This document shows positions 9,690-27,780 of a DNA stretch of 64,000 nt, piece after piece. A program made the translations under genes and the position numbers. The DNA is taken from the NCBI GenBank assembly GCA_965247265.1, contig OZ252002.1, forward strand, positions 1,882,964 through 1,946,963. The letters run 5' to 3'. Numbering within the stretch: position 1 is the first letter of the stretch; each line of letters begins with the position of its first letter. The DNA comes from Gammaproteobacteria bacterium. GTDB lineage: Bacteria > Pseudomonadota > Gammaproteobacteria > UBA4575. The notes under the pieces were generated by a model. The model was not told the DNA's origin, made no database searches, and saw only the letters and a program-made list of their open reading frames with translations.

Positions 9690-10815
9690 TTCTGACTTAA
9701 ATTTGCCTGTTTTTCTGCCCGTTCCCGGTGCGCTTCAGCGAAAACTCCACCGGTGTTTTGTAACCCAGCTGGCTGTACGGCCTTTCGTGATTATGCATCT
9801 CTCTCCATCGGTAAATCTTGATCCGTGCATCGTCCAAAGACAAGCACCAGTTCCGGTTCGAACATTCCAGCCTCACACGGGCATTCAATGCCTCGATCAA
9901 CGCATTGCCCGCGGGCTTTCCAGGGCGTGATAAGTCCAGCGTCACACCGTTGGCATAGGCCCACAAGTCCACTTCTTTCGACACGAACCCCAGGCCACTG
10001 TCGTCTGCTCCCTGAATCGTACGCGGGATCTCGTACTCCCGGGTAGCCCGCTCCAGGGTGTGTACCACATCATAGCCCGTATACCTGCGGCGCACCTCCA
10101 TCGCAGGACTTACACGAGTAAAGTGATCCACTATCTTAACACCCTCAGCCTCTGGCCATCCAAGGTCTGGGCCGCCATACAATCCATGCTCCAGCAGTCA
10201 TTCTGGAAACGGACCGGGGTAATACGTGCTTTCCGCAGTTTCTCCTGCACTCGCCGCCGTGGGCGTTTGTGCCGCACCTGCAGCCCCATCTCGCAGTACA
10301 ATCGATAGACCTGCTTGCGACACTGACCGCCCACAGCCTTCCCGACGTAACAACGCATGTATGCGTAGATACCCGTACCGGGTGCGGGTGGGTCCGCGCA
10401 ATGTCCCGGATCCGCTACTTCAATGCCACCTGTTCCACCTTGCGTGACCGGTACAGCCAGGTCTATCGCGGCAAATACACCCCCTCGCAAGCCCGCCTGG
10501 CACTCACCCCAAAACCATCCATCCACCCGGCGCGCCAACTCCCTCATGCGCGCAGGCCTTAAAGCTTTTTTCGGATCACCTCCTACAGCATGTGACGGTC
10601 CAGGCTCAAGTCCGCCACCCTCTGCTTCAATCAATGGTTCTCAACCTCCAGCTTCTTCAACCGGCGTACCTCTGAAGACGCCAATCCCCCAAACTTCTTC
10701 TTTCACCGGTAACATGTCTGCTCCGAAATCCCCACCTCCGTGACACCCATACCGCCCTCATGCTGGTGCAGCGCATAGGCAATCTGCTCCTCGCTAAACT
10801 GCGACTTCTTCATGC
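9690..10815 (-). mobile_element. Degraded IS3-family insertion sequence (orfA/orfB remnants with multiple frameshifts and stops)
   Basis: The minus strand from 10812 encodes MKKSQFSEEQIAYALHQHEGGMGVTEV..., an IS3-family OrfA HTH start, interrupted by stops. The ORF at 10131-10634 and the ORF at 9697-10182 carry the IS3 OrfB integrase-core (DDE) homology (…KTPVEFSLKRTG). The element is GC-rich relative to the flanks. Exact ends are not determined. Confidence 0.75.
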
Positions 10816-11258
10816 AAAAACATCCTTCCCCTACAAGGACATCTTAACGAGATTTTTCGCACTATGCCTGGTTCAGTTTACGGGGAGAAGACCAATCATC
10901 ATCTTTTTCCTGTTCTTAGATTTGTGTCAGATTCTGGGTTTACCCACAAGAAGAAGCTTTTATGTTCATGGGCAGCATTACAATGCTCAAGACATACGGC
11001 CTGCACAATGGGTTTAGACCTAAATTGCCGATCACATTTGTCAGTGATGATTGGAACGTTGTTTTCGTGTGCCTTGGTCCATGCTCCTGAATTTCGCAAT
11101 AAAATTTTTCTGGGGCAATTCAGTTGTGAACAATGCCTTTTTATTTACTTTCCTCCTTGTAGCGAGTTTGCTCTGAGCTACATCCAATATTTGTGGTAGC
11201 CTTTAATATGTAAAGGTGTACAGTACACCGCACACCAATCCGGGAAAGTCAATATATT

Positions 11259-12359
11259 ATGCAGATGCTACCGCTAGCTATTGCCCTAGCCGCCAGCTCT
11301 GTATTTGGCTTTGCTGGCTTTGAGGCGGATGCCGCCTCAAAAACAATTGAGATTGATGGTGAAACCGTTGCATGCGTCGACCGGACTGTGCAATCCCAGA
11401 TGGCGGTTGTAGACGCCCACGTACATTTTCGCCCGTTCGGCGGCAAGGCTCTGCCGTTTGAGGAGGTAGTTCAGTATCTTGAAAAAGCTGGTGTACGATT
11501 CGTGACTGTATATGGTATCGGCCAGATGCTACCAGTGTCATCATCATGTACATACTATCTCGACTGTCCCGGAACACCGGTAATGCCTACTTTAAAGAAT
11601 GACTTTTTTAACGCCGTCAATTACATCACTAAGGGTTCAGGTACGGTCCACATAACATTATCTATGAGTTTCCCAGACCTCACCCAGCCGGAAACTGTGC
11701 TCGATGGTATACGGTTGCTGGATAAGGAGTTTCCTGGGGTGTTCAAGTGGATGGGTGAAGTCAACCTGGTTAAGCAGGCGCTCTTTGGTAATCACCGTCT
11801 TGCCGTTCCCATGACTAAGATTGAGAAATGGGCACCGTTCATGGCTGAACTGCGCAAACGCGACATGCCTATCTCCATTCACTCGGACCTGGGAAGTAAC
11901 GAGGAACCAACTCGTTACTTGCCTTGGATCGAAGAGGTGTTGCGTCTGTACCCTGACAACAAGATCATCTGGATGCATCTTGGTTTGTCGCGGGAACTTA
12001 CCATAATCGACGTCAACAACCATATCGCGGTTCTGCAGTCGCTACTAGACCGCTATCCAAATCTGATGCTTGACATTGCTTGGCGAGTGATTGATGACAA
12101 CTACTTCTCAGACCCCAAGTTACGTGTGCAGTACGTGCCGTTCCTGAACACCTACTCTGACCGCATTTTACCCGGATCAGACTTTGTTGCGTCCATCAAT
12201 AAGAACTTCGAGGTGTATCAGGAGGAACTTGAAGTCACCAGTCGGATTATCCGCTACCTCGATAACGATGCGTTCCGGAATATTGCCCTCGGCGAGAACT
12301 ACTTCAGGCTGCTTGGTCTAGATGAGAAAGCACCTGTAGTGTGCTCTCGCCCTGATTGA
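11259..12359 (+). CDS. secreted metal-dependent amidohydrolase (amidohydrolase-2 / TIM-barrel hydrolase family)
   Basis: 366 aa. Signal peptide. HxH metal motif VDAHVHF near the N-terminus of the mature protein, with later His and Asp residues typical of the family. GC-richer than the surrounding DNA. Confidence 0.7.
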   Translation: MQMLPLAIALAASSVFGFAGFEADAASKTIEIDGETVACVDRTVQSQMAVVDAHVHFRPFGGKALPFEEVVQYLEKAGVRFVTVYGIGQMLPVSSSCTYYLDCPGTPVMPTLKNDFFNAVNYITKGSGTVHITLSMSFPDLTQPETVLDGIRLLDKEFPGVFKWMGEVNLVKQALFGNHRLAVPMTKIEKWAPFMAELRKRDMPISIHSDLGSNEEPTRYLPWIEEVLRLYPDNKIIWMHLGLSRELTIIDVNNHIAVLQSLLDRYPNLMLDIAWRVIDDNYFSDPKLRVQYVPFLNTYSDRILPGSDFVASINKNFEVYQEELEVTSRIIRYLDNDAFRNIALGENYFRLLGLDEKAPVVCSRPD

Positions 12360-14235: not shown

Positions 14236-14580
14236 ATGCAATTAGCAAATTTCAAACGACTGCGTGTCTTAATCCCTTTAGTATTTGTCACAGTACTTAT
14301 AGTCGTTTCAGTTGTCGTATTTCATCCTTCGTTTCAAAGGAAAATGCTACTCGATTATGTCGTACCACATGTCAGTGCACTGAGTTTTGACCTCGTCCAC
14401 ATCACACCCTGGTCGATGGATATCGAAAATTTAGCCATCGAGTATGAAGGTGGTCACTTCCAAATTGGAAAGGGTGCAATCAGATATTGTGGTTTGGTGA
14501 TAAAGGGCAAGCAAAAGAGCACAGCCAATAATTTTGATTATTCAGACAAATATAAGAACGTTATAAAAACTACCATATAA
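14236..14580 (+). CDS. hypothetical membrane-anchored protein
   Basis: 114 aa with an N-terminal TM helix. No recognisable domain. Confidence 0.3.
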   Translation: MQLANFKRLRVLIPLVFVTVLIVVSVVVFHPSFQRKMLLDYVVPHVSALSFDLVHITPWSMDIENLAIEYEGGHFQIGKGAIRYCGLVIKGKQKSTANNFDYSDKYKNVIKTTI

Positions 14581-14585
14581 GCATA

Positions 14586-15864
14586 ATGAACAAACCACTT
14601 TTAAAAGGGTACGGACTATCTATATTGCTCATTGCTGCGGGTTTTATACTTGCGTATCAATTTGTCGAACCTGCGCCGCCCAATCAATTAATTATGGCTA
14701 CTGGGAGCAAAACAGGTGCCTATCATAGTTTTGGCTTGGCGTTACAAAAAGTGCTTGCAGAAGATGGCATTGAACTGGAGTTGCGAAATTCTGATGGCAG
14801 TATGGAAAATGCAATGTTCATTGCAGATGGGACTGTCGATATATCAATCATTCAGGGTGGAACGCCTTTGTCTAAAATCGATAGAGGTGAAGAAATTCGA
14901 TCGCTTGGTAGTCTTTATTATGAGCCGATGTGGTTGTTTCACAAAATCAATCCACCACCACAAACCTTGCAACAGTTATCTCGTTTTCGAGTAAACAAAG
15001 GTAAAGAAGGGAGTGGAACGCTCCAACTCGTTAATGAGTTACCTAATCTGAATGATATGACCGAAGATAAGTTTTCTATGCTTGGTAATGCAGAGGCAAG
15101 TGAAGCGCTTGTAGCAGGAAAGTTAGATGCTGCATTCATAGTAAGCGGGGAAAAGTCTAAAGATGTTCAGAAGTTATTTGCAGCCAAAGATGTTGCAATT
15201 ATGGATTTTCCTCGTGCTGAAGCCTACCATTTACATCGCCGATATTTGTCAGTCCTTAAGTTACCGCCTGGTGGAATTGACATGGCAGATAATCGACCAG
15301 CTTTTGAACGCAGTCTAATTGCTGTGACTGCAGTTCTTGTTGCGCATGAAGATTTACATCCTGCGTTGGTAGATTTATTGCTGATGGCATCAAAGCGTAT
15401 TGTGGATAAACCCTGGCTTGTTTAACAAAAAAGGCCAATTTCCTTCTGGTAAATACCTATCTATTCCATTAGATAAAGATGCGGAACGAATTCATAAACG
15501 TGGACCATCATTTTTGCAACGCTATCTCCCATTTTGGGCGGCCACATTAGTGGATAGAATGATACTTATGCTAGTACCATTGATAGCAATTGTATTCCCT
15601 TTATTTAAAATTTTTCCACCTGTCTATCGTTGGCGAGTACGGTCACGTATTTATCGTTGGTATGCAGACTTGAAAAATATTGAAGTGAGACTCAATAAAG
15701 AAGAGTCAAGCAAAGATTTAATTAATGCAATTCAAGAACTCGAAAGCGAAGTCAAGCAGGTTGAAACACCATTATCTTATTCTGATGAGCTTTATCATTT
15801 GCGCAGTCATATTGACTTGGTATATGCGCGCATTAAAGAACGCGATGAGACTGGATACTTATAA
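14586..15864 (+). pseudogene. TAXI-family (TRAP-associated) periplasmic solute-binding protein with a C-terminal TM/coiled-coil extension, frameshifted
   Basis: ORF 14586-15425 has a TAXI-like body. ORF 15400-15864 in another frame continues with the conserved ...PGLFNKKGQFPSGKYLSIPLDKDAERIHKRGPSFLQRYLPFWAA... region and a TM helix. The two frames overlap by 26 nt. Confidence 0.55.
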
Positions 15865-16288
15865 GAATCTATTGAAATTAAAGTATTTAAAGTATAAAAA
15901 TAGTGTCTAGTAAAAATATTTTTTACTGCAGCATAAAACAAACAACATTTTTAAAGGATAAAACATGAGAACGTTGTTCACATTTAGCATTATTACTTTG
16001 ATGCTTATTACTGGCACTGCAATTGCTGAGAAAAAGCTTACACAAAAAGGTGCTGCAACCACTCACAGTCAGGTGAGCGATTGGTTGCTGCTAGTGAAGA
16101 ACGGTCAAATGCTAAAATCAAGGTAGGCGAGGGTGGTGAAGCATACAAAGGAACGCTTGACTATTGGTCTATAATAATAAGCAATCGGCTTTCAACTCAC
16201 GCTAAATAAGCATTTCAAAAACTATAAATATTATCCTCGTACGTATATTATGGCATACGAGGATTCATAAATTATTGAGAAATATCGT

Positions 16289-16781
16289 ATGAGAATATTA
16301 ATTTTATTATCTATGTCTGCGTTTTTATTTAGTTATGCAATAGTATCTGTAGCGCAAGATTTTTTCGTCTACCCATCAAAAGGCCAGTCATCGGAGCAAA
16401 CCGAAAAAGATAAATTTGAATGTTACGGTTGGGCCAAAAATGAAACCGGATTTGATCCAATTCAAACACCGACTGCAACTCGACCGCCTCCGCAAAAAGA
16501 GCAAGAAAAAGTAGGTGCTGCAGGCGGTGCTGTTGGCGGTGCAATAGTGGGCGGAGCGATAAGCGGCCTACTAGGTGGTGATGTTGAAGCCGGTGCAGCA
16601 GCAGGTGCTGTTGGAGGCGGTTTATTTGGCGGCGTGCGTAGAAGCGGACCAAAAAAAACGTGAGGCAGCGGCCCAACAACAATGGGAACAGGAACAAATG
16701 CAAAAATATGCGGGCGGACGAAATGCCTACAATCGTGCCTATGTCGCATGTTTAGAAGCACGTGGTTACTCGGTAAAATAG
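16289..16781 (+). CDS. Glycine-zipper family secreted/lipoprotein, reading frame broken at an A8 homopolymer
   Basis: Signal peptide, then FECYGWAKNETGFDP, then a Gly/Ala zipper (GAAGGAVGGAIVGGAISGLLGG...). The frame shifts at aaaaaaaa (16651-16658). The second frame ends ...NAYNRAYVACLEARGYSVK, which is typical of the family. Confidence 0.6.
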
Positions 16782-16793
16782 CAGGAGAAAAAT

Positions 16794-17177
16794 ATGAATA
16801 TGTCAATACGAATTTTAATAATATTGATGTTGATACTCAATACAACATTGATCCATGCCAATGAAATTGACTCCTCAAAACCTTTAGTCTGTGCAATAGT
16901 AGAAGTTATAGATTGTGGCGTGAAGGGTGATTGCGAACCGGTTGATCCCGAATTTGTAAATTTACCCAATATTTTTAAAGTCGATACGGAAAGTAAAGTA
17001 CTGCACAGTGGAGAACGCAAAACAAAAATTGATCATGTCACAAAAAATAAACAGGTAACCAGTGATGATAACAAAGCATGGTCTTTTGTGTTGTCTAACA
17101 ATACAGGCAAATTTACAGGTGCCATAGCTGCCTATGATTATGGCTTTCTCTTATTTGGATCATGCATCGTTGATTAA
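16794..17177 (+). CDS. hypothetical secreted protein
   Basis: 127 aa, signal peptide, four Cys residues. No recognisable family. Confidence 0.35.
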   Translation: MNMSIRILIILMLILNTTLIHANEIDSSKPLVCAIVEVIDCGVKGDCEPVDPEFVNLPNIFKVDTESKVLHSGERKTKIDHVTKNKQVTSDDNKAWSFVLSNNTGKFTGAIAAYDYGFLLFGSCIVD

Positions 17178-17323
17178 TTAGATTTTTAGATCACTAGCTC
17201 ATTGACCTTGAAGGTTGTTAATTTTATGTATGATGAGAGATTTTAATACTTACAGTTCATATATTTTTTACTCATTCAAATTTTGAGCTCCATGCATGAA
17301 ACATTCGTTTCCAGTATGCGTTT

Positions 17324-18510
17324 ATGCATAAAACACTTCTAATACTATTAATTTCAATACTTTGTTCGGCATGTGCAAGTATTAGTCGTGGCATTACTGA
17401 AGGCGTACTTAGTAGTAAAAATCAGGACTTAGTGGATGAGCGCGAATGCAATATACGCGGAACTAAATTTGATGGTCTCGATTCATCTTTTAATACACAA
17501 GGGAAAAGCCCTACATTAAAAGTATTAATGGTGCATGGTATTGGTGAGCATCTTCCCGGGTATTCAACCCGCATGGCTGAAAATTTAGCAACAGCCTTAA
17601 ATTTAAATGTTGGGAGCGCACGTTTTAAAGAAATTGACATAGTAGCAGGCCGATTTCCAAATGAAAATCTTGGAAAATTACGTATTGACCGTTACATAAA
17701 TCAGGAAGAGTCACAAGAAATGCTCTTTTATGAGCTGACTTGGTCGCCAATTGCTAAAAAAGAGAAAGATATTCTTGCCTATGATAACTCTGGTGAACAT
17801 TCGTTTCGTCGTGCCAACATTAACAACATCATGAAACCTTATATGAACAGTCATGTATCGGATCCACTTATTTATCTTGGTGCATCGCAAGAAAAAATAC
17901 AGGTATCTGTCATTACTTCAATATGCTGGATGATGAGCCGCGACTGGAAAGAAATCGATGAACATACACAAGGGCGGTGTGTAGCCGAACACACCAAATA
18001 TAATAAAGTATTAGATGATGAATTTGCTTTTATTACTCACAGCATGGGGAGTCGAATCGTCACAGATTCTTTTCAGGCGCTAATTCAGTACTTAGATAAT
18101 GAATTACAAACCAATTGCCGCTATTACAACTTGGCCGTGATAATCCTGAAGTGACCAATCAACATGAGGAATATTGTATGTCGGATGGAGAAAATTATGA
18201 CAAACGTTTCTTCAAAGAACTTACCGTTGTGGCATTTAGTGACCCGAATGACATAGTAAGTTATGACGTGCCACCCAAATTTGTTGATGAATATATGGAT
18301 TCCAGGCTATGCGTGAACTTAATTAACATCACAATAAATATCGCGCACGTAAAAGAACTTTTTGGATTAGGCTCATTCGCTAACCCATGTTTCGCACATC
18401 GACAATATGATAATGATGAGCGGGTAGTCGGAATTATTTCACACGGGCTACACGATCAGAATATTGCAGCTGTAGTAAAAGAACGCTGCGAATATCAAGA
18501 AACGAGATAA
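17324..18510 (+). pseudogene. Lipoprotein alpha/beta-hydrolase (lipase-like, GxSxG = THSMGS), frameshifted
   Basis: ORF 17324-18154 has a lipobox LCSAC and the nucleophile elbow ITHSMGSRIV. ORF 18115-18510 in a different frame carries candidate Asp and His catalytic residues (DPNDIV, HGLHD). Confidence 0.5.
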
Positions 18511-18718: not shown

Positions 18719-19333
18719 ATGTCTAGTGCACCCGAATCAATTTCCCCTAATTCCTGCGACATGGAAGCCTTAAATCAATGGTTTGATGAACGATTAGAGC
18801 AAAAGCTGCAGGAACGAGACGAAGCAAAAATTCCGCAACTTTCATTGATTGTCACAAAAGGCACAATGGATATGGCGTATCCGCCCTTTATTCTGGCTTC
18901 AACCGCTGCAGCGTTAGATTGGGAAGTATCCTGTTTTTTTACCTTCTATGGCTTAAATTTACTTAAGAAAAACCTTGATCTAGAAATTTCCCCACTGGGT
19001 AATCCTGCTATGCCAATGAAAATGCCATTTGGACCTGATTGGTTTCAGAACATTAAATGGGATATACCGAATGCGTTAAGCAGCAATATCCCAGGATTTG
19101 AAAAATTTGCGACCACAATGATGAAGCAAACGCTTAAAAACAAGGGTGTGGCAAGTGTTCAGGAGTTACGCGAGCTAAGCGTTGAAGCCGATGTAAAACT
19201 CATCGCTTGTCAAATGACGGTAGATTTATTCGGTTATAGTAAAGATGAGTTTATTGATGATGTGTCTGAATGGGTAGGTGCAGCTTCATTTTTACCTGCC
19301 GCTCAAAAGTCTGATATCTGCTTGTTCATTTGA
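18719..19333 (+). CDS. DsrE/DsrF-like (DsrE2-type) sulfur-transfer family protein
   Basis: 204 aa. Motifs TMDMAYPPFILASTAAA, FFTFYGLNLLKK and conserved Cys in IACQMTVDLFG match the DsrE2 family signature (FFTFWGL...C-x-M). Confidence 0.6.
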   Translation: MSSAPESISPNSCDMEALNQWFDERLEQKLQERDEAKIPQLSLIVTKGTMDMAYPPFILASTAAALDWEVSCFFTFYGLNLLKKNLDLEISPLGNPAMPMKMPFGPDWFQNIKWDIPNALSSNIPGFEKFATTMMKQTLKNKGVASVQELRELSVEADVKLIACQMTVDLFGYSKDEFIDDVSEWVGAASFLPAAQKSDICLFI

Positions 19334-19893
19334 ACAAAGTATTTTTTTCTATTTGTTGCGCACTGTTTTTGTGTTCATTGGTCCATGGAGAAGATATTGA
19401 TGAGCAACTCTTTGCTAGTAAAGACGCCACGCAACACCTTGCTCGCCAACTAAGAAGCAAGCTGATAAGCAGCTTAGAAGAAAGTGGTGCGGTTAATTCA
19501 ATCAGTGTATGCAATACAGAAGCTTTTAAAATATCAGCGGAGTTGTCTAAAAAATATAACGGCAAGGTCAGCCGCACTTCATTAAAAATTCGCAATCCAG
19601 AGAATAAACCCGATACTTGGGAACGTAACACGCTATTAGAATTTGAAAATCAGAAACAAGCAGGTACCGATACTTCTCAATTAGAATCATATAAGGTCAT
19701 TAAAAATGATAACGGAAAATGGTTTCGCTATTTGAAAGCCATTCCAACCGGTGATGTGTGTTTAATGTGTCATGGTGAGCATATTGCACCGGATGTTGAA
19801 GATAAAATAAAGACTTTATATCCAAATGATTTAGCAACAGGTTATGAAGTAGGGGACATTCGCGGTGCGTTTACCATCAAGCTACGCATGTAA
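19330..19893 (+). CDS. Secreted c-type haem protein, DUF3365 (Tll0287-like PAS-fold) family
   Basis: 187 aa. Signal peptide and a single C-terminal CLMCHG haem-binding motif, as in DUF3365 proteins. Confidence 0.6.
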   Translation: MNKVFFSICCALFLCSLVHGEDIDEQLFASKDATQHLARQLRSKLISSLEESGAVNSISVCNTEAFKISAELSKKYNGKVSRTSLKIRNPENKPDTWERNTLLEFENQKQAGTDTSQLESYKVIKNDNGKWFRYLKAIPTGDVCLMCHGEHIAPDVEDKIKTLYPNDLATGYEVGDIRGAFTIKLRM

Positions 19894-19963: not shown

Positions 19964-21247
19964 TTATCCAAACATTTCTGCAGTCATGTTGTTAAACCAG
20001 CTGTAAGCATAGTGCACTTCTCGCTTACGTGCTTCTGCTGACGCATCTGCTGGAGTAAGTCCTCCACCGAGTTTCTCAATCGCTGAACGATCACCTTTAA
20101 GCTTGTACACCGCAACAACGGATATGCCGTAATCAGGTGCAATTATGCTGTAACAAGCATTTGCATAGGATGGTGTTGGTGGCTCTTTGCCGTTTAACAT
20201 ACTCACAACGGCTGCTGCACAAACTTTCGCTTCTGTACTGGCAGCATAACCCGATTTTGGAAGACCAGTTGCAATACTTGCATCACCGATAACATGAATA
20301 CCTTTATGTTTTTTGGATTCAAATGTTCCAAGATCAACTGGACACCAACCCGAATCATCAGTAAGGCCTGCATCGATAGCAATTTGCGCTGCATTTTGTG
20401 GTGGAATGATATTGGCAACTGCTACTTTATAGTCATCAAAATCTGTGCTGACCGTCATATCTTTTGTATTTACACGTTTAACACCACCACCCGTATCTGC
20501 GCCGGCAACCCATTCAATCATGTCCCCATAAACATCTTTATAGCCTTGCATGAACAATCCTTGCTTAGAAAATTTATCTTTTGCATCAAGGATCATAATT
20601 TTTGATTTAGGCTTGTTGTGTTTCAAATAATGTGCAATTAGTGCAGCACGCTCATAGGGTCCTGGAGGACAGCGGAATGGATTTCCTGGTGGAGCTAAAA
20701 CGACTAGGCCTCCATCATCCATAGCTTCGAGCTGACTTCGCAACAATGCAGTTTGTGCACCAGCAATCCATGCATGAGGCATAACTTCAGAAGCTGCTTC
20801 ATCATAACCTTCAATTGCACCCCACTTGAATGCAATACCAGGTGACATTACTAAACGGTCATATTCAAGCGTAGTACCACCGGCAGTGGTTATTTTTTTG
20901 CTTTCTGCATCAATGGCTGTGGCTTTGTCTTGTACAAGCTTAATACCATGATCTGCAAGTTTATCGTAGCCAAATTTGATGGTTGAAATATCGCGATCAC
21001 CACCAATTACTTCATTACTCATAAAGCATGTATGATGATGTGCTTCTGATTCTACGATTGTCACTTCTGTAGAAGAATCTCCCTTAGCAATATACTTCGC
21101 GGCAATCATTCCACCTACACCACCACCAATTACAACGACACGATGTTTTGCTGCACAGGCGATATGTGGGAAACCAAGACCTACAGTAGTAGCGGCAAAA
21201 CTACTGCCCGTAACTTTTAAAAATTCTCTTCTTGTAACTTTCGACAT
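19964..21247 (-). CDS. fccB: Flavocytochrome c sulfide dehydrogenase, flavoprotein subunit
   Basis: 427 aa. Tat signal RREFLK. FAD dinucleotide-binding motif VVVIGGGVGGMIAAKYI. Lies directly upstream of a dihaem cytochrome gene. Confidence 0.85.
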   Translation of the reverse strand: MSKVTRREFLKVTGSSFAATTVGLGFPHIACAAKHRVVVIGGGVGGMIAAKYIAKGDSSTEVTIVESEAHHHTCFMSNEVIGGDRDISTIKFGYDKLADHGIKLVQDKATAIDAESKKITTAGGTTLEYDRLVMSPGIAFKWGAIEGYDEAASEVMPHAWIAGAQTALLRSQLEAMDDGGLVVLAPPGNPFRCPPGPYERAALIAHYLKHNKPKSKIMILDAKDKFSKQGLFMQGYKDVYGDMIEWVAGADTGGGVKRVNTKDMTVSTDFDDYKVAVANIIPPQNAAQIAIDAGLTDDSGWCPVDLGTFESKKHKGIHVIGDASIATGLPKSGYAASTEAKVCAAAVVSMLNGKEPPTPSYANACYSIIAPDYGISVVAVYKLKGDRSAIEKLGGGLTPADASAEARKREVHYAYSWFNNMTAEMFG

Positions 21248-21277
21248 TTTTATGACTCCTAACTTAAACCTGTGCGA

Positions 21278-21943
21278 TCAATTTTGATTGCCATAGAACT
21301 GAATTAAATCAACAGTAGCCCCTTCTTTATGTGCCTCATGCATTTCTTCCATTTTCTTTTTCATCTTCTTAGGCATGGCTCTGTTACCATCGAAATAATC
21401 AGCCATGGTGTAGTCTAGATAGGGCAGCCATTGACCTGCTAAAACACCTGCATCGTCTTCTGCAGATCCTCCACCATCTTCATGGCACTTTTCACAAAAT
21501 TTATCATGTCGTTTTGCGCCGGTTTTTGCTTTACCAGCATCGGCATCTTGATCTGCTGTTTGAAACGGCATTTCAGCAAAGTGTTTAGCAATAAGCTTAA
21601 GTTCTTCTACTGAATAACCCTGTGCAATTCGATTCATTACTGTTGAAAATCTGGGGAAATATTCTACCTCTTCAAGATCTGGATCAGCTTCAATGGCTTC
21701 TTCAGCTTTATCTTCATCGTCACCAAATTTATATGCCAACATTGCGCCAATAATATAAATTTCAGACATTCCAGATATTGTAGGTATTGCTGGTCCTTCG
21801 CTGACCCCGCTTGGTCCATGACAACCCAGGCAGGTGTTTGAAAGCATAGATGGGCTCGCTGTCCCTTCAGCCCATGCAGTATTCAGAGATAATAATCCAA
21901 TTACACTTAATATAAGTGATTGACGGATGAGTTTGTAAAACAT
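21278..21943 (-). CDS. fccA: Flavocytochrome c dihaem cytochrome subunit
   Basis: 221 aa. Signal peptide. Two CXXCH motifs (CLGCHG, CEKCHE). Adjacent to fccB. Confidence 0.7.
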   Translation of the reverse strand: MFYKLIRQSLILSVIGLLSLNTAWAEGTASPSMLSNTCLGCHGPSGVSEGPAIPTISGMSEIYIIGAMLAYKFGDDEDKAEEAIEADPDLEEVEYFPRFSTVMNRIAQGYSVEELKLIAKHFAEMPFQTADQDADAGKAKTGAKRHDKFCEKCHEDGGGSAEDDAGVLAGQWLPYLDYTMADYFDGNRAMPKKMKKKMEEMHEAHKEGATVDLIQFYGNQN

Positions 21944-22056
21944 AGCTGTCCTCCGCTTTGAGTTAAATTCTTGTTATGTCTTTTATTTAACTGATTTTTA
22001 ATTCTTATTTATAAATGTTAACACAGTAATTTATTGGCTTTTAGAGCTGATTTCAT

Positions 22057-22596
22057 TTACTTTTTAAACGCAACTTCTTCTTCTAAATACGGTTCATCGG
22101 GCTCTTCATGAGCAACACCTTTATGGCAATCGATACAGGTTTTGCCGCTAGTTTCTATTTTTTTGTGTTTTTTGCGTGCTGATCTGTCCTGTTCTTCTAA
22201 ATCCATCGCTGCTACCGTGTGGCAAGACTTGCATTCACGAGAATCCGTAGCTTCCATACGATTCCATACTGCATTCGCCATTTGCCAGCGATGGTCTTCA
22301 AATTTTTCTTCAGTATCGATGGTACCCAGAATTTCATGCCAAACATCTTTTGCAGCGCGAAGTTTTGCATAGAGTTTAGGGCCAAGATTATGCGGCACAT
22401 GACAATCTGAACAATTCGCGCGAACACCTGAAATATTGGAATAGTGGAGGCTTTCCATCCATTCTTGTTTTACCCATTGCATGGAATGGCAAGACGTACA
22501 AAAATCTGTTGAATTAGTGGCTTCCAATGAAAGAGATGATCCTATAGCCGCAGCAAATCCTACAATCAACATCAATACGATAACTATTATTTTCAT
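22057..22596 (-). CDS. NapC/NirT/CymA-family membrane-anchored tetrahaem cytochrome c
   Basis: 179 aa. N-terminal TM helix. Four CXXCH motifs (CTSCHS, CSDCHV, CKSCHT, CIDCHK) with family-typical spacing. Confidence 0.8.
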   Translation of the reverse strand: MKIIVIVLMLIVGFAAAIGSSLSLEATNSTDFCTSCHSMQWVKQEWMESLHYSNISGVRANCSDCHVPHNLGPKLYAKLRAAKDVWHEILGTIDTEEKFEDHRWQMANAVWNRMEATDSRECKSCHTVAAMDLEEQDRSARKKHKKIETSGKTCIDCHKGVAHEEPDEPYLEEEVAFKK

Positions 22597-23033: not shown

Positions 23034-24350
23034 ATGAAACCATTAATAATACTGTTATTCGTAATCGGATTTGGAATCTGGATGATTGCTACAGGGTCTG
23101 CAGATATTTTTTTAACTACCACAGACTCATCTGCTGAAGTCGTCAGTGAGGACAGCAGCAAAGAATCAAGCATTACAGATAATGCTGAGCCTATTCAAGA
23201 AATAGAAAGCTCAACGCTTGAAGAGATTAGCGCTGAGACTTTATTAGTGGCAGAAAATGATGTCATTGAAAATGACTCAGAAAGTATAAATGAAGCTCAA
23301 TATTCTGAAAAAGACACATATAATACTAAAAATACCTTAGCAGAGGATGATTTAGATTCACTGGGTTCTGATACGAGTGAAGTAACTGATGAGCCAACTA
23401 TTGTTGCAGAAGCTAATACTGCTGCAGAAACTACTACAACTGAATCAAACCAAGAATCTTCAGATAGCACGCCATCAACAACAATCCCGCCCACTAATCC
23501 ACATTTGGGTAGTATGTGGATGTCGCCTATGCAAAACCCCATGAATAATTTTTGGATGAATCCAATGTTCAATATGATGATGCAGATGATGGGGCCTATG
23601 ATGAATCCCGCAATGTATATGAATCCCATGAGCATAATGAATCATCCCATTAATGCCATGACCCAAGCGCAAAGCATGGATTACATGATGCGCTCAATGG
23701 ATCCACATTTACTATTTGGAATGTTTGGACAAACAAGTGAAGGCTATAAAAACGGTGAAGTGCCTGACCAACTTCCAGTCGTCACAATCCCCGGATTTCC
23801 TACTCAAACTTATCAAAATTGGCCTAGAAATAAAGTATCTCCTGGTGTTTCGCGCGAAGCTAAGAAAAACGCATTTCAAACAATGATGGGAATAAGCCCG
23901 CTTTCCATGCGAGACATGCTAGGAATAATTACGGATAAAGTTCCTGTTGCGGAAGATGTCACTTGGGATGATGCCGTTGAAGCTATGAAACTTCGCGCCA
24001 ATGAAGTTAATTTTAAATTTGTCGGATCAAGCCCCCTATGGAAAGAAATTGAAGCCGTTACTGGCGAGCCTTCAGCACGAGTTGAGATGTTTCGGTTCTG
24101 TGATGCTGCCGTGGCACGAAAGATTTTAGATGAAATCCCAGAGTTTATTGTGTTTCTTCCCTGCAAAATTGCGTTGATTGAAGATGGAGATGGAAAACTT
24201 TGGGTCATGACACTTGATTGGGATGTGAGTTGGTTGGACTTTGCACAGAATCCGAATAATCATTTAGCAAAGGATTTACGTGAAGACGCAACACGAATTA
24301 GGGAAAACATGCGCTACATTATGGAAGGGGCCGCAACCGGTGACTTTTAG
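23034..24350 (+). CDS. Secreted modular protein: signal/TM, acidic Ser/Thr/Glu-rich linker, Met-rich NPM-repeat segment, C-terminal DUF302 domain
   Basis: 438 aa. The Met-rich block is SMWMSPMQNPMNNFWMNPMFNMMMQMMGPMMNPAMYMNPMSIMNHP...SMDYMMRSMDPH. The C-terminal FRFCDAAVARKILDEIPEFIVFLPCKIALIEDGDGKLWVMTLDWD matches the DUF302 (TT1751-like) motif (CNP..A...LPC..V). Confidence 0.6.
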   Translation: MKPLIILLFVIGFGIWMIATGSADIFLTTTDSSAEVVSEDSSKESSITDNAEPIQEIESSTLEEISAETLLVAENDVIENDSESINEAQYSEKDTYNTKNTLAEDDLDSLGSDTSEVTDEPTIVAEANTAAETTTTESNQESSDSTPSTTIPPTNPHLGSMWMSPMQNPMNNFWMNPMFNMMMQMMGPMMNPAMYMNPMSIMNHPINAMTQAQSMDYMMRSMDPHLLFGMFGQTSEGYKNGEVPDQLPVVTIPGFPTQTYQNWPRNKVSPGVSREAKKNAFQTMMGISPLSMRDMLGIITDKVPVAEDVTWDDAVEAMKLRANEVNFKFVGSSPLWKEIEAVTGEPSARVEMFRFCDAAVARKILDEIPEFIVFLPCKIALIEDGDGKLWVMTLDWDVSWLDFAQNPNNHLAKDLREDATRIRENMRYIMEGAATGDF

Positions 24351-24411: not shown

Positions 24412-25101
24412 ATGTTCTTACGACAAAAGTTAATCCAATTATTTGCGGGTGCATTGATAATTGTTATTGCAGGTGCCACGAGCTTACAAGCAGAAGATGC
24501 GAGCTCTGCATCTACAGGCATGACACCTGCCATGCAAAAGGCCATGGACCCAAATGTTTGGACAAACATGATGGCAATGATGATGAATCCAGAAAAGGCA
24601 ATGTCTATGGAATCGTGTGCAGAATGTCATGACGGTGAAGATGTGGCGCGCTATCAAAAAGATTTTGGCCCAATGATGGAAGCCATGAAGCCAATGATGA
24701 GTATGATGAATCCTCATATGATGACCTCCATGATGAACCCTATGATGGGCATGATGAACCCTATGATGGGCATGATGAACCCTATGATGGGCATGATGAA
24801 CCCTATGATGGGCATGATGAACCCTATGATGGGTGGCATGATGAACCCTATGATGGGTGGCATGATGAACCCTATGATGGGTGGCATGATGAACCCTATG
24901 ATGGGTGGCATGATGAACCCCATGACCATGATGAACATGATGTATCCGATGATGGGAATGATGGGCCCAATGATGGGAATGGGTGGCATGGGTAATCCAA
25001 TGATGGGTGGCAACCCAATGGGACAAATGATGGACCCTAAACAATATGAGAATTGGTTTAACGAAATGATGAAAGGCTTTACACCACAAGCACAAAAGTA
25101 A
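24412..25101 (+). CDS. Secreted methionine-rich tandem-repeat protein with one CXXCH motif
   Basis: 229 aa. Signal peptide, then SMESCAECHDGEDV (CXXCH), then MMNPMMG x5 and MMNPMMGG x4 repeats. Shares the MDPNVWTNMM and C-terminal QYENWF motifs with the two neighbouring genes. Confidence 0.6.
   Translation: MFLRQKLIQLFAGALIIVIAGATSLQAEDASSASTGMTPAMQKAMDPNVWTNMMAMMMNPEKAMSMESCAECHDGEDVARYQKDFGPMMEAMKPMMSMMNPHMMTSMMNPMMGMMNPMMGMMNPMMGMMNPMMGMMNPMMGGMMNPMMGGMMNPMMGGMMNPMMGGMMNPMTMMNMMYPMMGMMGPMMGMGGMGNPMMGGNPMGQMMDPKQYENWFNEMMKGFTPQAQK
24730..24935 (+). repeat. Intragenic tandem repeat: about five 21-bp units followed by about four 24-bp units
   Basis: atgatgaaccctatgatgggc is repeated about 5 times, then atgatgaaccctatgatgggtggc about 4 times, all in frame. 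Confidence 0.9.
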
Positions 25102-25134: not shown

Positions 25135-25650
25135 ATGGGCGTAAAAAAATTACTTACACAAGCAATTTTTGTAGTGCCCATCTTGGCCATTATTACAGTG
25201 CCGGTGATATTGCATTTTAAAAGTCAAAGTACTACGCCAGCAGAGAATAATAATGCTGGCCCAACTTATCAAAACAATCTTTCTACACACAGTTTCACAA
25301 ATACAATTTCTTCTGCTCAGGCATATGATAAATTCGCAATTCCTGAACCATTCTCTGCTGCAAATTCAACTTTAGGGCTGACGTATGCCATGACTAAATC
25401 CATGGATCCGAATACGTGGATGAAGATGATGATGAATATGATGAATCCAGCCATGATGACTCAAATGATGCACCAGATGATGCAAATTCCCACTAAAATG
25501 ATGGTGCCTTTCATGAATAATGGATTCAGTATGGGCCCGGCTATGTTACCGCAATCACATGCGATGGGCTCTGCACCAAATATAATGACCCCTGCACAAT
25601 ATAAAGATTGGTACACAAAGCAACAGAATAAGCTTAACAATGTCAAATAA
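25135..25650 (+). CDS. Secreted methionine-rich protein, paralogous to the two upstream genes
   Basis: 171 aa. N-terminal TM/signal. SMDPNTWMKMMMNMMNPAMMTQMMHQMMQIP block. C-terminal PAQYKDWY resembles PKQYENWF of the preceding gene. Confidence 0.5.
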   Translation: MGVKKLLTQAIFVVPILAIITVPVILHFKSQSTTPAENNNAGPTYQNNLSTHSFTNTISSAQAYDKFAIPEPFSAANSTLGLTYAMTKSMDPNTWMKMMMNMMNPAMMTQMMHQMMQIPTKMMVPFMNNGFSMGPAMLPQSHAMGSAPNIMTPAQYKDWYTKQQNKLNNVK

Positions 25651-25814: not shown

Positions 25815-26960
25815 ATGGAAGAATTGTCTAACCTTCATTTAATCGCCTTACTAGGCTTTGTGATAGCTATGGTGTTTGGCTTTATTGGAAATAAAACCCA
25901 CTTTTGTTCCATGGGAGCGATAAGTGATGTGGTGAATATGGGTTCAAAAGGACGTTTAGGCGCTTGGTTTTTAGCAATAGGCGTCGCAATTTTAGGTGCA
26001 CAGTTTTTGTTCATACGTGGATTGGTAGATCTGAATTCATCAGTTTATCTTGCACCAAATTTATACATATTAAGTTACATCCTTGGTGGAATAATATTTG
26101 GCATCGGAATGACCCTGGCGGCAGGCTGTGGACAGCGCAATTTGGTTAGGCTGGGAGGCGGAAACTTAAAAGCGCTTGTTGTTGTCATTGTTTTAGGTGT
26201 GACCGCATATATGACAATGCGCGGAATTTTGGCAGTGGTACGTTTAAATTGGGTGTATGCCGTGAACTCTGATTTGACTACGTATGGAATTAATGACCAA
26301 GGCTTATTTAGTTCCCTTGGTGCATTATTTAATCTTGAAAATACTAACTTGCTCAGAAAAATTGGTGGATTCTTAATTGCGTTTGGTTTTATTGCCTATG
26401 CATTTAAACAAAAAGAATTTAGATCAAGTGTTGACAATATGCTAGCTGGATTTGTAATTGGTGGATGCGTCATTGCCGCATGGTTTGTAACAGGTTATAT
26501 CGGTCAGGACGACTTTGATCCAGTTACTCCTCAAGGCATGGCATTTATTGGGCCAACGGGTAATACAATAAGCTATTTAATGACATTTACAGGTGCCGAA
26601 ATTAATTTCGGTATCGCCGTTGCAATGGGGATGATTGCAGGTTCATTTTTGTATGCAGCTCTTTCTGGTAACTTCCGTATTGAAACATTCAGCAATAAAT
26701 CTGAAATGGTAAGTCATTTAATTGGTGCGGTATTGATGGGATTTGGTGGTGTACTTTCATTCGGATGCACCATAGGGCAGGGTGTGACGGGAATGTCTAC
26801 GTTAGCAATGGGATCTATTTTAGCGTTGATCTCTATTATTTTTGGATGTGCGCTTACAATGAAGATTCAATACCACATGCTGGACGAGAAGGGATTTACA
26901 GTTGCATTAGTATCTGCACTAAAAGAGTTACTTACACCTTGGAATAAAGAAGCTGCTTAG
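25815..26960 (+). CDS. YeeE/YedE-family sulfur-compound (thiosulfate) transporter
   Basis: 381 aa, polytopic. Two internally repeated halves, each with a conserved Cys-containing G-C-x-x-G region (AAGCGQRN, SFGCTIGQG). Confidence 0.8.
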   Translation: MEELSNLHLIALLGFVIAMVFGFIGNKTHFCSMGAISDVVNMGSKGRLGAWFLAIGVAILGAQFLFIRGLVDLNSSVYLAPNLYILSYILGGIIFGIGMTLAAGCGQRNLVRLGGGNLKALVVVIVLGVTAYMTMRGILAVVRLNWVYAVNSDLTTYGINDQGLFSSLGALFNLENTNLLRKIGGFLIAFGFIAYAFKQKEFRSSVDNMLAGFVIGGCVIAAWFVTGYIGQDDFDPVTPQGMAFIGPTGNTISYLMTFTGAEINFGIAVAMGMIAGSFLYAALSGNFRIETFSNKSEMVSHLIGAVLMGFGGVLSFGCTIGQGVTGMSTLAMGSILALISIIFGCALTMKIQYHMLDEKGFTVALVSALKELLTPWNKEAA

Positions 26961-26987: not shown

Positions 26988-27302
26988 TTATTTTATTTCT
27001 GCTTCGCCGCTGCCTGACTCACCTTTATTGTCTGTCCAGGTGATTTTGACAACATCACCCGCTTTACCACCATCAAATTCAAATGACCAGTAAGGGTTTT
27101 TTGAAATTCCTGTTCCCCAGTCTGCAGAGATAATCACTTCGCCATTTAATTCTGCTTTAACTTCTTTAATAAAATGGGCAGATATTAGCTCACCCGTGTC
27201 TTTGTCTTTTCGACTACCAGATTCCATTTCGTGATACATAATAGTTTTAACAGTTGTCACGCCATCTTTAATTTTTGCTCTAATTTTCATTTCTTCAGCC
27301 AT
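26988..27302 (-). CDS. soxZ: Thiosulfate oxidation carrier protein SoxZ
   Basis: 104 aa. SoxZ-like sequence and size. Lies immediately downstream of soxY. Confidence 0.85.
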   Translation of the reverse strand: MAEEMKIRAKIKDGVTTVKTIMYHEMESGSRKDKDTGELISAHFIKEVKAELNGEVIISADWGTGISKNPYWSFEFDGGKAGDVVKITWTDNKGESGSGEAEIK

Positions 27303-27321
27303 CGAATTATTCCTTCATCTT

Positions 27322-27780
27322 TTATACACAACCGCCAGCAGTAACTTTAACAACACTCTTGCTAGCGTATAACTTGCCGTCAGCTTTAACGATGGCAACT
27401 ACATTAGATGTTTCACGCAATTTAATGCGAGTTGATACAAACGGTTTAGATTTTCCATGAAAATAAAATCGTGAAATCCAAGGTCTTGGATTTTTATCTC
27501 CAAATATACTAATCCACTCTACATTCCCTAAATCTGTTGAAACTTTTACCGGTACGGTTGCACCATTTTCAGCGATTTCGGGTGCATCTAGTGTTACATG
27601 CCCATCAAGTAATTCCTGATCGCCTACGAGCCCTTTTAAGGATGCTTCATATTCTGTCTCGTCAAACGCCGCAGAAGGCCATTCTGCGATCGCAACGCGA
27701 GAAAGAATTCCAGTACTTAATGCTGCAAAGAGACTTGTATAAGCACTATGTTGAATAAATTTTCTTCGTGAAATTTTCAT
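27322..27780 (-). CDS. soxY: Thiosulfate oxidation carrier protein SoxY
   Basis: 152 aa. Tat/Sec signal MKISRRKFIQHS. C-terminal ...VTAGGCV with the carrier Cys in a Gly-Gly-Cys context. Confidence 0.8.
   Translation of the reverse strand: MKISRRKFIQHSAYTSLFAALSTGILSRVAIAEWPSAAFDETEYEASLKGLVGDQELLDGHVTLDAPEIAENGATVPVKVSTDLGNVEWISIFGDKNPRPWISRFYFHGKSKPFVSTRIKLRETSNVVAIVKADGKLYASKSVVKVTAGGCV

What the first reader, a model, noticed from the sequence alone, without database searches (positions are those of the whole stretch)
24730..24935. In-frame 21-bp and 24-bp tandem DNA repeats encoding MMNPMMG and MMNPMMGG
About five near-identical 21-bp units (atgatgaaccctatgatgggc) are followed by about four 24-bp units with an extra ggc (atgatgaaccctatgatgggtggc). 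Near-perfect nucleotide identity between units implies recent expansion and a locus prone to slipped-strand copy-number change. That would tune the number of Met motifs and could vary between strains or cells. The His-rich ORFs on the opposite strand are only the mirror image of this repeat.
Basis: seen in the sequence. Interest (0 to 1): 0.55.

Follow-up and report, generated by a model that had tools for sequence, protein, structure and literature searches.

The report
Variable methionine repeat in sulfur-oxidation protein
A 180-bp run of exact 21-bp and 24-bp repeats lies in frame in a gene for an exported, one-third-methionine protein that sits with sulfur-oxidation genes; close relatives change the repeat number between strains, so the DNA behaviour is ordinary but the protein family is undescribed.

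Summary
The repeat is real. There are four exact 21-bp units (24730-24813, MMNPMMG), then four exact 24-bp units (24814-24909, MMNPMMGG), with degenerate units on both sides. It lies in frame in ORF 24412-25101 (+), 229 aa and 32% Met. The protein has a signal peptide, a helical N-domain with an invariant CxxCH, a disordered linker that is 51% Met, and a conserved C-terminal helix.

All synonymous sites are uniform across the units (P about 1e-8). Asn is always AAC, although 13 other genes in the window prefer AAT. This points to recent duplication, not codon bias.

No second genome of this species was found. In the sister species, four assemblies with 98.9-99.97% identical flanks carry four different alleles, and one synonymous codon has been homogenised across the array. 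Other lineages differ by whole units too. Every repeat period is a multiple of 3, so this is an in-frame coding minisatellite that changes linker length. It is not an on/off switch.

The opposite-strand His-rich ORF is a mirror image of the Met codons.

The gene is paired with a DUF302 gene in 42 of 44 loci and sits in sox/fcc/DsrE/YeeE neighbourhoods. It has no Pfam, NCBIfam or PDB relative. Its biochemical role (probable haem c, sulfur handling) is inferred, not shown.

The parts
24412..25101 (+). Gene carrying the repeat: 229-aa exported protein, 74 Met (32%). GAGG ribosome-binding site 9 nt upstream of the ATG.
   Evidence: More than 200 homologues. Third-codon-position excess of substitutions.
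24412..24492 (+). Sec-type signal peptide, residues 1-27, ending SLQA|ED (A27 and E28 nearly invariant).
   Evidence: Read from the sequence; alignments. No dedicated signal-peptide predictor was available.
24514..24729 (+). Conserved helical N-domain (MQKxMDPNVW...CAxCH...VARYQKDFGPMMEAMKP...MMNPHMMTS).
   Evidence: AF2 pLDDT 82-91. Alignments. Only 47 clusters at 50% identity among 1.84 billion proteins.
24616..24630 (+). CAECH: CxxCH motif (C69, C72, H73), invariant in 88 of 88 aligned homologues. Probable covalent haem c attachment site.
   Evidence: Weak DUF1924 matches over this stretch in 7 of 26 members.
24703..24729 (+). Degenerate unit MMNPHMMTS just before the array. It is conserved in orthologues and marks the fixed 5' edge of the array.
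24730..24813 (+). Four exact 21-bp units ATGATGAACCCTATGATGGGC (MMNPMMG).
24814..24909 (+). Four exact 24-bp units ATGATGAACCCTATGATGGGTGGC (MMNPMMGG). Same unit with one extra GGT codon.
24910..25029 (+). Truncated ninth unit, then a degenerate Met/Gly/Pro-rich tail of the disordered linker with mixed synonymous codons.
   Evidence: AF2 pLDDT below 50 for residues 123-205.
25030..25080 (+). Conserved C-terminal helix, MDPKQYENWFNEMMKGF.
   Evidence: Alignment. AF2 helix 209-223, pLDDT about 80.
24484..25095 (-). His-rich antisense ORF (203 aa). It is an artefact of ATG read as CAT on the other strand and is not a gene.
23034..24350 (+). Partner gene: membrane-anchored protein with an acidic S/T/E-rich linker, its own Met-rich stretch and a C-terminal DUF302 domain. 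Immediately upstream in 42 of 44 orthologous loci.
25135..25650 (+). Membrane-anchored Met-rich paralogue (171 aa) that has lost the CxxCH segment.
25815..26960 (+). YeeE/YedE-type sulfur transporter (Sulf_transp), downstream on the same strand.
26988..27780 (-). soxZ and soxY.
19964..22596 (-). Flavocytochrome c sulfide dehydrogenase (FccB, dihaem FccA) and a NapC/NirT tetrahaem cytochrome, transcribed divergently from the DUF302 gene.
18719..19333 (+). DsrE-like protein (DrsE_2), part of the recurring neighbourhood.

Best explanation
The feature is an in-frame coding minisatellite (VNTR). It encodes part of the intrinsically disordered, 51%-Met linker of an exported protein of an undescribed family. 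That family has a signal peptide, a helical N-domain with an invariant CxxCH, the Met/Gly/Pro/Asn linker, and a conserved C-terminal helix.

Units are gained and lost by replication slippage or unequal recombination between identical 21- and 24-bp units. The same process keeps the units homogenised (concerted evolution). Because every unit is a multiple of 3 bases, each event adds or removes 7-8 residues (4 Met) and never shifts the frame. The result is graded linker length, not on/off switching.

Shown: the repeat anatomy, the coding strand, the disorder prediction, the family and its synteny, and strain-level copy-number change in relatives.

Inferred: (i) this very locus is polymorphic. (ii) The CxxCH carries haem c (my estimate about 0.6). 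(iii) The protein works in the periplasm together with the adjacent DUF302 protein in sulfur oxidation or trafficking next to FccAB, SoxYZ, DsrE and YeeE. The uncharged thioether-rich linker would act through bulk composition as a multivalent soft surface, most likely for zero-valent sulfur or polysulfane (my estimate about 0.3). The confidence figure refers to the minisatellite/slippage explanation and the gene identity, not to steps (ii) and (iii).
For: Anatomy and significance:
- Exact 4 x 21 bp and 4 x 24 bp units, in frame.
- Uniform synonymous sites, P 4e-9 to 2e-8, against the codon bias of 13 other window genes.
- It is the only strong tandem repeat in 64 kb.

Instability in relatives:
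- Sister-species strains with 98.9-99.97% identical flanks carry four different alleles, and a synonymous CCG/CCT change has spread over 7-8 units.
- Members of the same 90% clusters, and close species pairs, differ only by whole units: 297/292/287 aa by GMGMP; 244/226/216 aa; L022/L023 by 27 aa; L031/L035 by 33 aa.
- 11 of the 45 genes analysed have arrays of at least 3 copies at 95% identity or more, with lineage-specific units of 21-45 bp.
- All TRF periods are multiples of 3.
- The CxxCH-to-C-motif distance ranges 80-266 aa.

Protein:
- AF2 gives a helical N-domain at pLDDT 82-91, residues 123-205 below 50, and a C-helix near 80.
- The linker is 51% M, 19% G, 12% P and 12% N, with no charged residue.
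- C69, C72 and H73 are invariant in 88 sequences.

Context:
- DUF302 gene adjacent in 42/44 loci, SoxYZ in 34, DsrE-like in 37, YeeE in 30, FccAB plus NapC in 26.
- An isolated DrsE_2-DUF302-target-YeeE cluster in L037, and a divergent soxXYZA arrangement in L008.
- Even a minimal 140-aa relative has a DUF302 neighbour.
- DUF302 is already noted in the literature as a sox-cluster gene of unknown role (PMC5037610, PMC11034169).
Against: - No conspecific sequence was found, so polymorphism at this exact locus is extrapolated from relatives.
- Some length differences between assemblies could be assembly or sequencing artefacts. L049, P0096 and P0126 carry frameshifts inside the arrays.
- Haem binding rests on the motif alone. 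No Pfam cytochrome family passes threshold (best DUF1924 E = 0.0016). There is no PDB sequence match and no Foldseek match for either model.
- Nothing measured here links the Met-rich linker to sulfur chemistry. The link is gene neighbourhood only.
Confidence: 0.78

Rival explanations
1. Cu(I)/Ag(I) sponge or chaperone. The Met-rich disordered region binds soft metal ions in the periplasm, as in SilE/PcoE or the Met-rich insert of CueO, and repeat number sets its capacity.
For: The protein is exported, disordered and very Met-rich, with continuous MxM and MxxM spacings. Met-rich periplasmic copper proteins and disordered metal sponges are well documented (PMC5008109, PMC12041951, PMC12509749; found).
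Against: No cop, cus, pco or sil gene appears among the annotated neighbours in the window or in L008, L037 and L042. The 44 loci show sulfur genes instead. The linker has only one His, whereas SilE-type sites use His plus Met (my own knowledge). In a sulfide-oxidising periplasm, sulfide and polysulfide should outcompete thioether sites for Cu(I) (inference).
Confidence: 0.12
2. Sacrificial oxidant sink. The Met residues scavenge periplasmic oxidants and are re-reduced by MsrP/Q, as for MrpX of Azospira suillum.
For: MrpX is also a signal-peptide-bearing Met-rich periplasmic protein (PMC4436054). The oxic-sulfidic interface is an oxidant-rich habitat (inference).
Against: MrpX is 20% Met and 44% charged residues and lies in a yedY1Z1-mrpX operon under SigF. 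Here the linker has no charged residue. No molybdopterin YedY-like, YedZ-like or ECF sigma gene is among the annotated neighbours. The invariant CxxCH and the DUF302 pairing have no counterpart in MrpX.
Confidence: 0.08
3. Static array. The periodic peptide is selected as such, and the DNA identity reflects codon preference rather than ongoing expansion or contraction.
For: Twelve of 21 bases per unit are Met codons with no synonymous alternative, so identity looks stronger than it is. The same 21-bp unit occurs in a species only about 75% identical in flanking DNA.
Against: The array uses AAC in 8 of 8 units although the 13 other window genes use AAT 77% of the time. The degenerate flanks of the same gene mix codons. 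Sister-species strains differ in unit number and have homogenised a synonymous change.
Confidence: 0.05
4. On/off contingency locus. Slippage in the repeat switches the gene off and on by frameshift.
For: Frameshifted versions exist in three assemblies (L049, P0096, P0126). The +3 frame of the arrays is open and reads an acidic D/E/H-rich tail.
Against: All units and all TRF periods in the 45 genes analysed are multiples of 3. The L049 frameshift is a 1-nt loss in a G run in a contig with a Flye-style name, which suggests a read error.
Confidence: 0.03
5. Assembly artefact. The unit count in the window is wrong because the repeat was collapsed or expanded.
For: Repeats are a known source of assembly error, and short-read contigs break at these arrays (L050 ends inside one).
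Against: The array is only 180 bp. It lies in a 2.76-Mb single contig, is exactly in frame, and has a clean two-block structure.
Confidence: 0.04

Closest known systems
In-frame coding VNTRs/minisatellites of bacterial exported proteins, e.g. the 24-bp Xr repeats of Staphylococcus aureus spa and MLVA loci (my own knowledge)
   Same: Head-to-tail units of tens of bases that are multiples of 3 and near-identical. Copy number differs between strains, so protein length changes without loss of frame. The repeats encode a low-complexity spacer.
   Different: The unit encodes an almost pure Met/Gly/Pro/Asn peptide in a periplasmic protein of a sulfur oxidiser, not a surface antigen or adhesin. There is no sign of host or immune selection.
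SilE/PcoE disordered periplasmic metal sponges and the Met-rich insert of CueO (PMC5008109, PMC12041951)
   Same: Exported and intrinsically disordered. Function is thought to come from many weak Met ligands rather than a fold.
   Different: Almost no His, no metal-resistance neighbours, an invariant CxxCH domain, pairing with DUF302, and a tandem-repeat origin.
MrpX, the Met-rich periplasmic hypochlorite scavenger of Azospira suillum (PMC4436054)
   Same: Signal peptide, Met-rich, periplasmic, low complexity.
   Different: MrpX is 20% Met and 44% charged and sits in a yedYZ operon under SigF. This protein is 32% Met overall (51% in the linker), has an uncharged linker, and sits with DUF302, sox and YeeE genes.
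Small periplasmic c-type cytochromes, including the DUF1924 family
   Same: Exported, helical, with one invariant CxxCH. Weak DUF1924 similarity lies over the motif. A minimal relative lies just 3' of a class I cytochrome c gene with a 4-nt overlap.
   Different: No family passes threshold and no fold match was found. A 112-residue Met-rich disordered linker is not a cytochrome feature.
Sulfur globule proteins SgpA-D of purple sulfur bacteria (my own knowledge)
   Same: Sec-exported, small, repetitive low-complexity proteins of sulfur oxidisers, associated with periplasmic zero-valent sulfur.
   Different: Sgps are Gly/Tyr-rich and not Met-rich, and have no CxxCH. Homology and localisation were not tested here.

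Membership tests
Coding VNTR / minisatellite | Head-to-tail units of about 10-100 bp with high identity between units | tested here: met
   4 x 21 bp and 4 x 24 bp, all exact. TRF 97% matches, score 279.
Coding VNTR / minisatellite | Unit length is a multiple of 3 and lies in frame in an expressed ORF | tested here: met
   21 and 24 bp in frame with ORF 24412-25101. All TRF periods in the 45 genes analysed are multiples of 3. Expression itself was not tested.
Coding VNTR / minisatellite | Copy number differs between strains of one species | tested here: inconclusive
   Met in the sister species: four alleles in four assemblies with 98.9-99.97% identical flanks. Also met in three other lineages. 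No second genome of the window's own species was found.
Phase-variable contingency locus | Repeat change shifts the reading frame or alters the promoter to switch expression | tested here: not met
   Units are multiples of 3 and internal to the ORF.
c-type cytochrome | CxxCH haem attachment motif in an exported protein | tested here: met
   C69, C72 and H73 are invariant in 88 sequences. A signal peptide is present.
c-type cytochrome | Recognisable cytochrome c domain by profile or fold | tested here: inconclusive
c-type cytochrome | Covalently bound haem | not testable with these tools
   Needs haem staining or mass spectrometry of the protein.
SilE/PcoE-type or CueO-type Met-rich copper/silver binder | Genetic linkage to cop, cus, pco or sil genes, or to a multicopper oxidase | tested here: not met
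   Neighbours are DUF302, sox, fcc, DsrE and YeeE genes in 44 loci.
SilE/PcoE-type or CueO-type Met-rich copper/silver binder | Disordered, exported, Met-rich segment | tested here: met
   pLDDT below 50 for residues 123-205. Linker is 51% Met.
SilE/PcoE-type or CueO-type Met-rich copper/silver binder | Binds Cu(I)/Ag(I) | not testable with these tools
   Needs metal titration.
MrpX-type oxidant sink | Operon or regulon with periplasmic Met sulfoxide reductase YedYZ/MsrPQ | tested here: not met
   No such gene among the annotated neighbours in the window, L008 or L037. The rest of the genome was not seen.
Sulfur globule proteins (Sgp) | Homology to SgpA-D, or localisation on sulfur globules | not tested
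   No Sgp sequences or localisation data were available. The composition differs (Met-rich against Gly/Tyr-rich; my own knowledge).

The most novel reading that the evidence does not exclude
Three adjacent periplasmic proteins share uncharged Met-rich disordered segments: the membrane-anchored DUF302 protein, this soluble CxxCH protein, and the anchored paralogue. Together they could form a thioether-rich matrix at the outer face of the inner membrane. This matrix would capture or solubilise hydrophobic zero-valent sulfur or polysulfane made by FccAB/Sox and pass it, with a haem-linked redox step, to the YeeE-type importer and DsrE. That would be a new kind of sulfur-handling disordered protein, whose capacity is set by a fast-evolving coding minisatellite.
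Probability: 0.15. Interest if true: 0.8.

Novelty: new variant of a known kind. Interest (0 to 1): 0.45.

Why it matters
At the DNA level this is a textbook coding minisatellite, and it could serve as a strain-typing marker for an uncultured group of marine sulfur oxidisers.

The more useful result is the gene. It defines a small family: 47 clusters at 50% identity among 1.84 billion proteins, with no Pfam or NCBIfam model and no solved structure. The family combines an invariant CxxCH with one of the most Met-rich segments known to me. It is locked to a DUF302 gene, a domain repeatedly seen in sox clusters whose role has never been explained.

How periplasmic zero-valent sulfur is held and handed to the cytoplasm is an open question in sulfur oxidation. 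This DUF302 / Met-rich / YeeE / DsrE module is a concrete, testable candidate for part of that step.

Tried and rejected
Searches that gave nothing useful:
- Pfam and NCBIfam scans of the protein gave no family.
- A PDB profile search gave only a chance QueC hit, E 0.87.
- Foldseek against PDB gave nothing for the full-length model and only E > 4 noise for a minimal relative.

Attempts to find a second genome of the same species all failed:
- The exact-protein look-up had no record.
- The 90% clusters of four of the window's proteins (the target, FccB, the DUF302 protein and the paralogue) hold no other full-length member. The YeeE sequence is not in the collection.
- A degenerate DNA pattern for PHMMTSMMNPMMG in JGI metagenomes returned one contig of another species, matching its downstream paralogue.
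- The genome-contig scan did not return the window's own genome.

Literature searches found no description of this family. The terms were methionine-rich with sulfur-oxidizing, DUF302, sulfur globule and symbiont.

Readings rejected: the minus-strand His-rich ORF as a gene, frameshift phase variation, and codon bias as the cause of unit identity.

The organism could not be named. All relatives are unnamed Gammaproteobacteria or Thiotrichales MAGs plus the Olavius algarvensis Gamma 3 symbiont. The window holds no rRNA, only tRNA-Glu.

Full report
**Observation.**

Positions 24730-24813 hold four exact copies of ATGATGAACCCTATGATGGGC. Positions 24814-24909 hold four exact copies of the same unit with one extra GGT codon (ATGATGAACCCTATGATGGGTGGC). 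A ninth unit is truncated and differs (CCC) at 24910-24925. Degenerate Met-rich units lie on both sides, at 24703-24729 and to about 25020. TRF gives 97% matches and score 279, and no other tandem repeat of score 60 or more exists in the 64-kb window.

Four of the seven codons in each unit are ATG, so 12 of 21 bases cannot vary. The remaining synonymous sites are nevertheless uniform: Asn AAC 8/8, Pro CCT 8/8, and Gly uniform within each unit class. The same gene outside the array mixes AAT/AAC, CCA/CCT/CCC/CCG and GGT/GGC/GGA. Given the peptide, the probability of this uniformity is 4e-9 with the codon usage of 13 other window genes, or 2e-8 with the gene's own usage. AAC is the minority Asn codon in those genes, at 23%. 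The units are therefore copies of one another by descent, not convergent codon choice.

**The gene and its coding strand.**

The array lies in frame in ORF 24412-25101 (+), which encodes 229 aa with 74 Met. A GAGG lies 9 nt upstream of the start. The protein begins with a typical Sec signal peptide ending SLQA|ED.

Against ten orthologues, substitutions in the N-domain fall 104/68/237 on + strand codon positions 1/2/3. The + frame is always better conserved than any antisense frame.

**Protein architecture.**

A search of 5.8 billion proteins found more than 200 homologues with no Pfam domain. Alignments of 26 and 88 sequences show four parts:
- a conserved N-domain, MQKSMDPNVW..MMxMMM.P....C(A)xCH.GEDVARYQKDFGPMMEAMKP;
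- C69, C72 and H73 invariant within that domain;
- a central region that cannot be aligned and is made of Met, Gly, Pro and Asn;
- a conserved C-terminal motif, MDPKQYEQWF..MMKNF.

AlphaFold2 with the 88-sequence alignment gives helices at pLDDT 82-91 for residues about 39-100, below 50 for residues 123-205, and a C-terminal helix (209-223) near 80. The array encodes residues 107-166, so it forms the core of a disordered linker. That linker (residues 95-206) is 51% Met, 19% Gly, 12% Pro and 12% Asn, with no charged residue and one His.

**How the family evolved.**

A full HMMER scan of 1.84 billion cluster representatives with the 72-residue N-domain found only 47 clusters at E up to 1e-3. The family is therefore small.

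Its most distant members are about 140-aa proteins in which only 45-55 residues separate the CxxCH from the C-motif. In the orthologues studied here the same distance ranges from 80 to 266 residues, with 32-90 Met. The median is 125 and the window has 134. The Met-rich linker is thus an expansion of a short ancestral loop.

**Is the array dynamic?**

No second genome of the window's species could be found. The closest relative is about 73-76% identical in flanking DNA and has the same gene order. It is represented by four independent ENA assemblies whose flanks are 98.9-99.97% identical to each other.

At the same position, directly after the conserved MMNPHMM(T/S)S, these assemblies carry the same 21-bp unit in different numbers:

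| Assembly | 21-bp units | 30-bp MMGPMMNPMG units |
|---|---|---|
| L001 | 8 | 2 |
| L047 | 7, plus an inserted 9 bp | 2 |
| L048 | 8 | 3 |
| L049 | 4, plus 9 bp | about 3-4 |

There are further unit-sized differences downstream. All eight units of L001 use Pro CCG, whereas seven of eight in L048 use CCT. One synonymous change has therefore been spread through the array, which is the signature of concerted evolution by repeated contraction and expansion.

Other lineages behave the same way:
- In three other 90%-identity clusters, proteins 96.5-99.7% identical outside the gap differ only by whole units: 297/292/287 aa by GMGMP, and 244/226/216 aa.
- Species pairs L022/L023, L031/L035 and L008/L013 differ by 27, 33 and 14 + 52 residues of repeat.

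Eleven of the 45 genes analysed carry arrays of at least 3 copies at 95% identity or more, with lineage-specific units of 21, 27, 30, 36, 39, 42 or 45 bp. Every TRF period in the family is a multiple of 3.

Three of the four sister-species contigs are 228-438 kb long, and the arrays are only about 200 bp, so collapse during assembly is unlikely to explain the differences. Sequencing error does occur: L049 has a 1-nt loss in a G run that splits the gene, and P0096 and P0126 are frameshifted.

**Mechanism at the DNA level.**

The simplest account is replication slippage or unequal recombination between identical units. This is established knowledge for tandem repeats.

The clean two-block structure (4 x 21 bp, then 4 x 24 bp) fits a 3-bp GGT duplication in one unit followed by local amplification of that variant. 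Each step changes the protein by 7 or 8 residues (4 Met) and never breaks the frame. This is length variation, not phase variation.

Composition is conserved: Met is 34-46% of the stretch between the CxxCH and the C-motif across the family. Length is not conserved. The linker probably acts through bulk composition. Whether length is tuned or merely tolerated cannot be decided here.

**Genomic context.**

In the window the gene order is:
- DsrE-like (18719-19333);
- Tll0287-like;
- fccB and fccA, and a NapC/NirT cytochrome, on the minus strand;
- then, divergently, a DUF302 gene (23034-24350);
- the target gene;
- a Met-rich paralogue (25135-25650);
- a YeeE-type sulfur transporter (25815-26960);
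- then soxZ and soxY on the minus strand.

Across 44 orthologous loci from uncultured marine Gammaproteobacteria, the neighbours are as follows:

| Neighbour | Loci out of 44 |
|---|---|
| DUF302 gene ending just upstream | 42 |
| DsrE-like | 37 |
| SoxYZ | 34 |
| YeeE | 30 |
| FccAB plus NapC | 26 |

In L037 a four-gene cluster, DrsE_2-DUF302-target-YeeE, sits among unrelated tol-pal and queuosine genes. In L008 the DUF302-target pair is divergent from soxX-Y-Z-A-DsrE. A minimal 140-aa relative in a quite different neighbourhood still has a DUF302 gene next to it. The Olavius Gamma 3 copy overlaps the stop of a class I cytochrome c gene by 4 nt.

No copper-resistance, Msr or ECF sigma genes were seen among the neighbours. 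DUF302 genes are already recorded inside sox clusters of Acidithiobacillia and Sulfitobacter, with unknown function (PMC5037610, PMC11034169).

**What the protein probably does.**

The protein is shown to have a signal peptide, an invariant CxxCH, a predicted disordered Met-rich linker, tight linkage to DUF302, and a sulfur-oxidation neighbourhood. The rest is inferred.

- The CxxCH is most simply a haem c attachment site. The window encodes other multi-haem cytochromes, so maturation must be available. Seven of 26 members give sub-threshold hits to DUF1924 across the motif. In Allochromatium, DUF1924 is encoded beside a dihaem cytochrome c and a cytochrome b561.
- No profile or fold match confirms a cytochrome. 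I put haem binding at about 0.6.
- My preferred functional reading (about 0.3) is a periplasmic accessory of sulfur oxidation or import that works with the DUF302 protein. The uncharged thioether-rich linker would offer a multivalent soft, hydrophobic surface for zero-valent sulfur or polysulfane.
- Copper or silver binding (about 0.12) and an MrpX-like oxidant sink (about 0.08) are the main rivals. Both lack the expected gene neighbours. MrpX is compositionally different, at 20% Met and 44% charged.

**Comparison with known systems and novelty.**

As DNA, this is a coding VNTR of the kind known from spa and many MLVA loci (my own knowledge). It meets the anatomical criteria. It meets the polymorphism criterion only in relatives. 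It is not a contingency locus.

As a protein, it resembles Met-rich periplasmic disordered proteins such as SilE/PcoE, the CueO insert and MrpX. It fails their contextual criteria and adds a CxxCH domain and a DUF302 partner. I found no paper describing the family.

I therefore rate it a new variant of a known kind. The repeat behaviour is ordinary, and the gene family is a worthwhile, testable lead for sulfur-oxidation biology.

Noticed in passing
window 25135-25650 (+); compare L001 6991-7662: The downstream Met-rich gene is a membrane-anchored paralogue of the target. In the sister species and in at least seven other relatives it carries CxxCH (MCASCHQGEDLARYQKQFGPMM). The window copy lacks 153 bp (51 codons) including the motif. 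The gap is bounded by ATGAAnCC microhomology, which suggests an in-frame deletion between Met-rich microrepeats.
   Followed up: partly
window 23034-24350 (+): The DUF302 partner has an N-terminal membrane anchor, an acidic Ser/Thr/Glu-rich linker of about 150 aa, its own Met-rich stretch and an SMDP motif shared with the target. Sister-species strains differ by a 7-aa (VATDEET) and a 5-aa (MNMMS) indel, so its low-complexity parts also vary.
   Followed up: partly
window 24535-24560, 25030-25050, 25405-25425; DUF302 gene about 23760: A short motif, SMDPxxW / MDPxxY, recurs at the start of the N-domain, at the C-terminal helix, in the paralogue and in the DUF302 protein. It may be a shared docking or packing element.
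   Followed up: no
L049 3001-3794; proteins P0096, P0126: Some assemblies show the gene frameshifted inside the array. The +3 frame of Met-rich arrays has no stops and reads an Asp/Glu/His/Pro/Gly-rich tail. The L049 case is a 1-nt loss in a G run and is probably a read error, but real frameshift alleles are not excluded.
   Followed up: partly
L051 407-1653; L042 5597-6480: Minimal relatives of about 140-170 aa, without the expanded linker, keep informative neighbours. There is a DUF302 gene directly downstream in L051, and a class I cytochrome c gene overlapping by 4 nt upstream in the Olavius Gamma 3 symbiont.
   Followed up: partly
window 19330-19893 (+): A Tll0287-like protein is encoded between the DsrE-like gene and fccB, and recurs in 12 of 44 loci. 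From memory, Tll0287 is a PAS-like c-type haem protein in cyanobacteria.
   Followed up: no
window 10001-12000 and 44001-46000: GC content rises to 0.48-0.51 against a background of 0.35-0.43. These are not rRNA, since Rfam finds only tRNA-Glu at 9203-9278. The 11259-12359 ORF is an amidohydrolase. The cause was not examined.
   Followed up: no
window 14236-18510: Several ORFs of 114-276 aa upstream of the sulfur cluster have no Pfam match.
   Followed up: no
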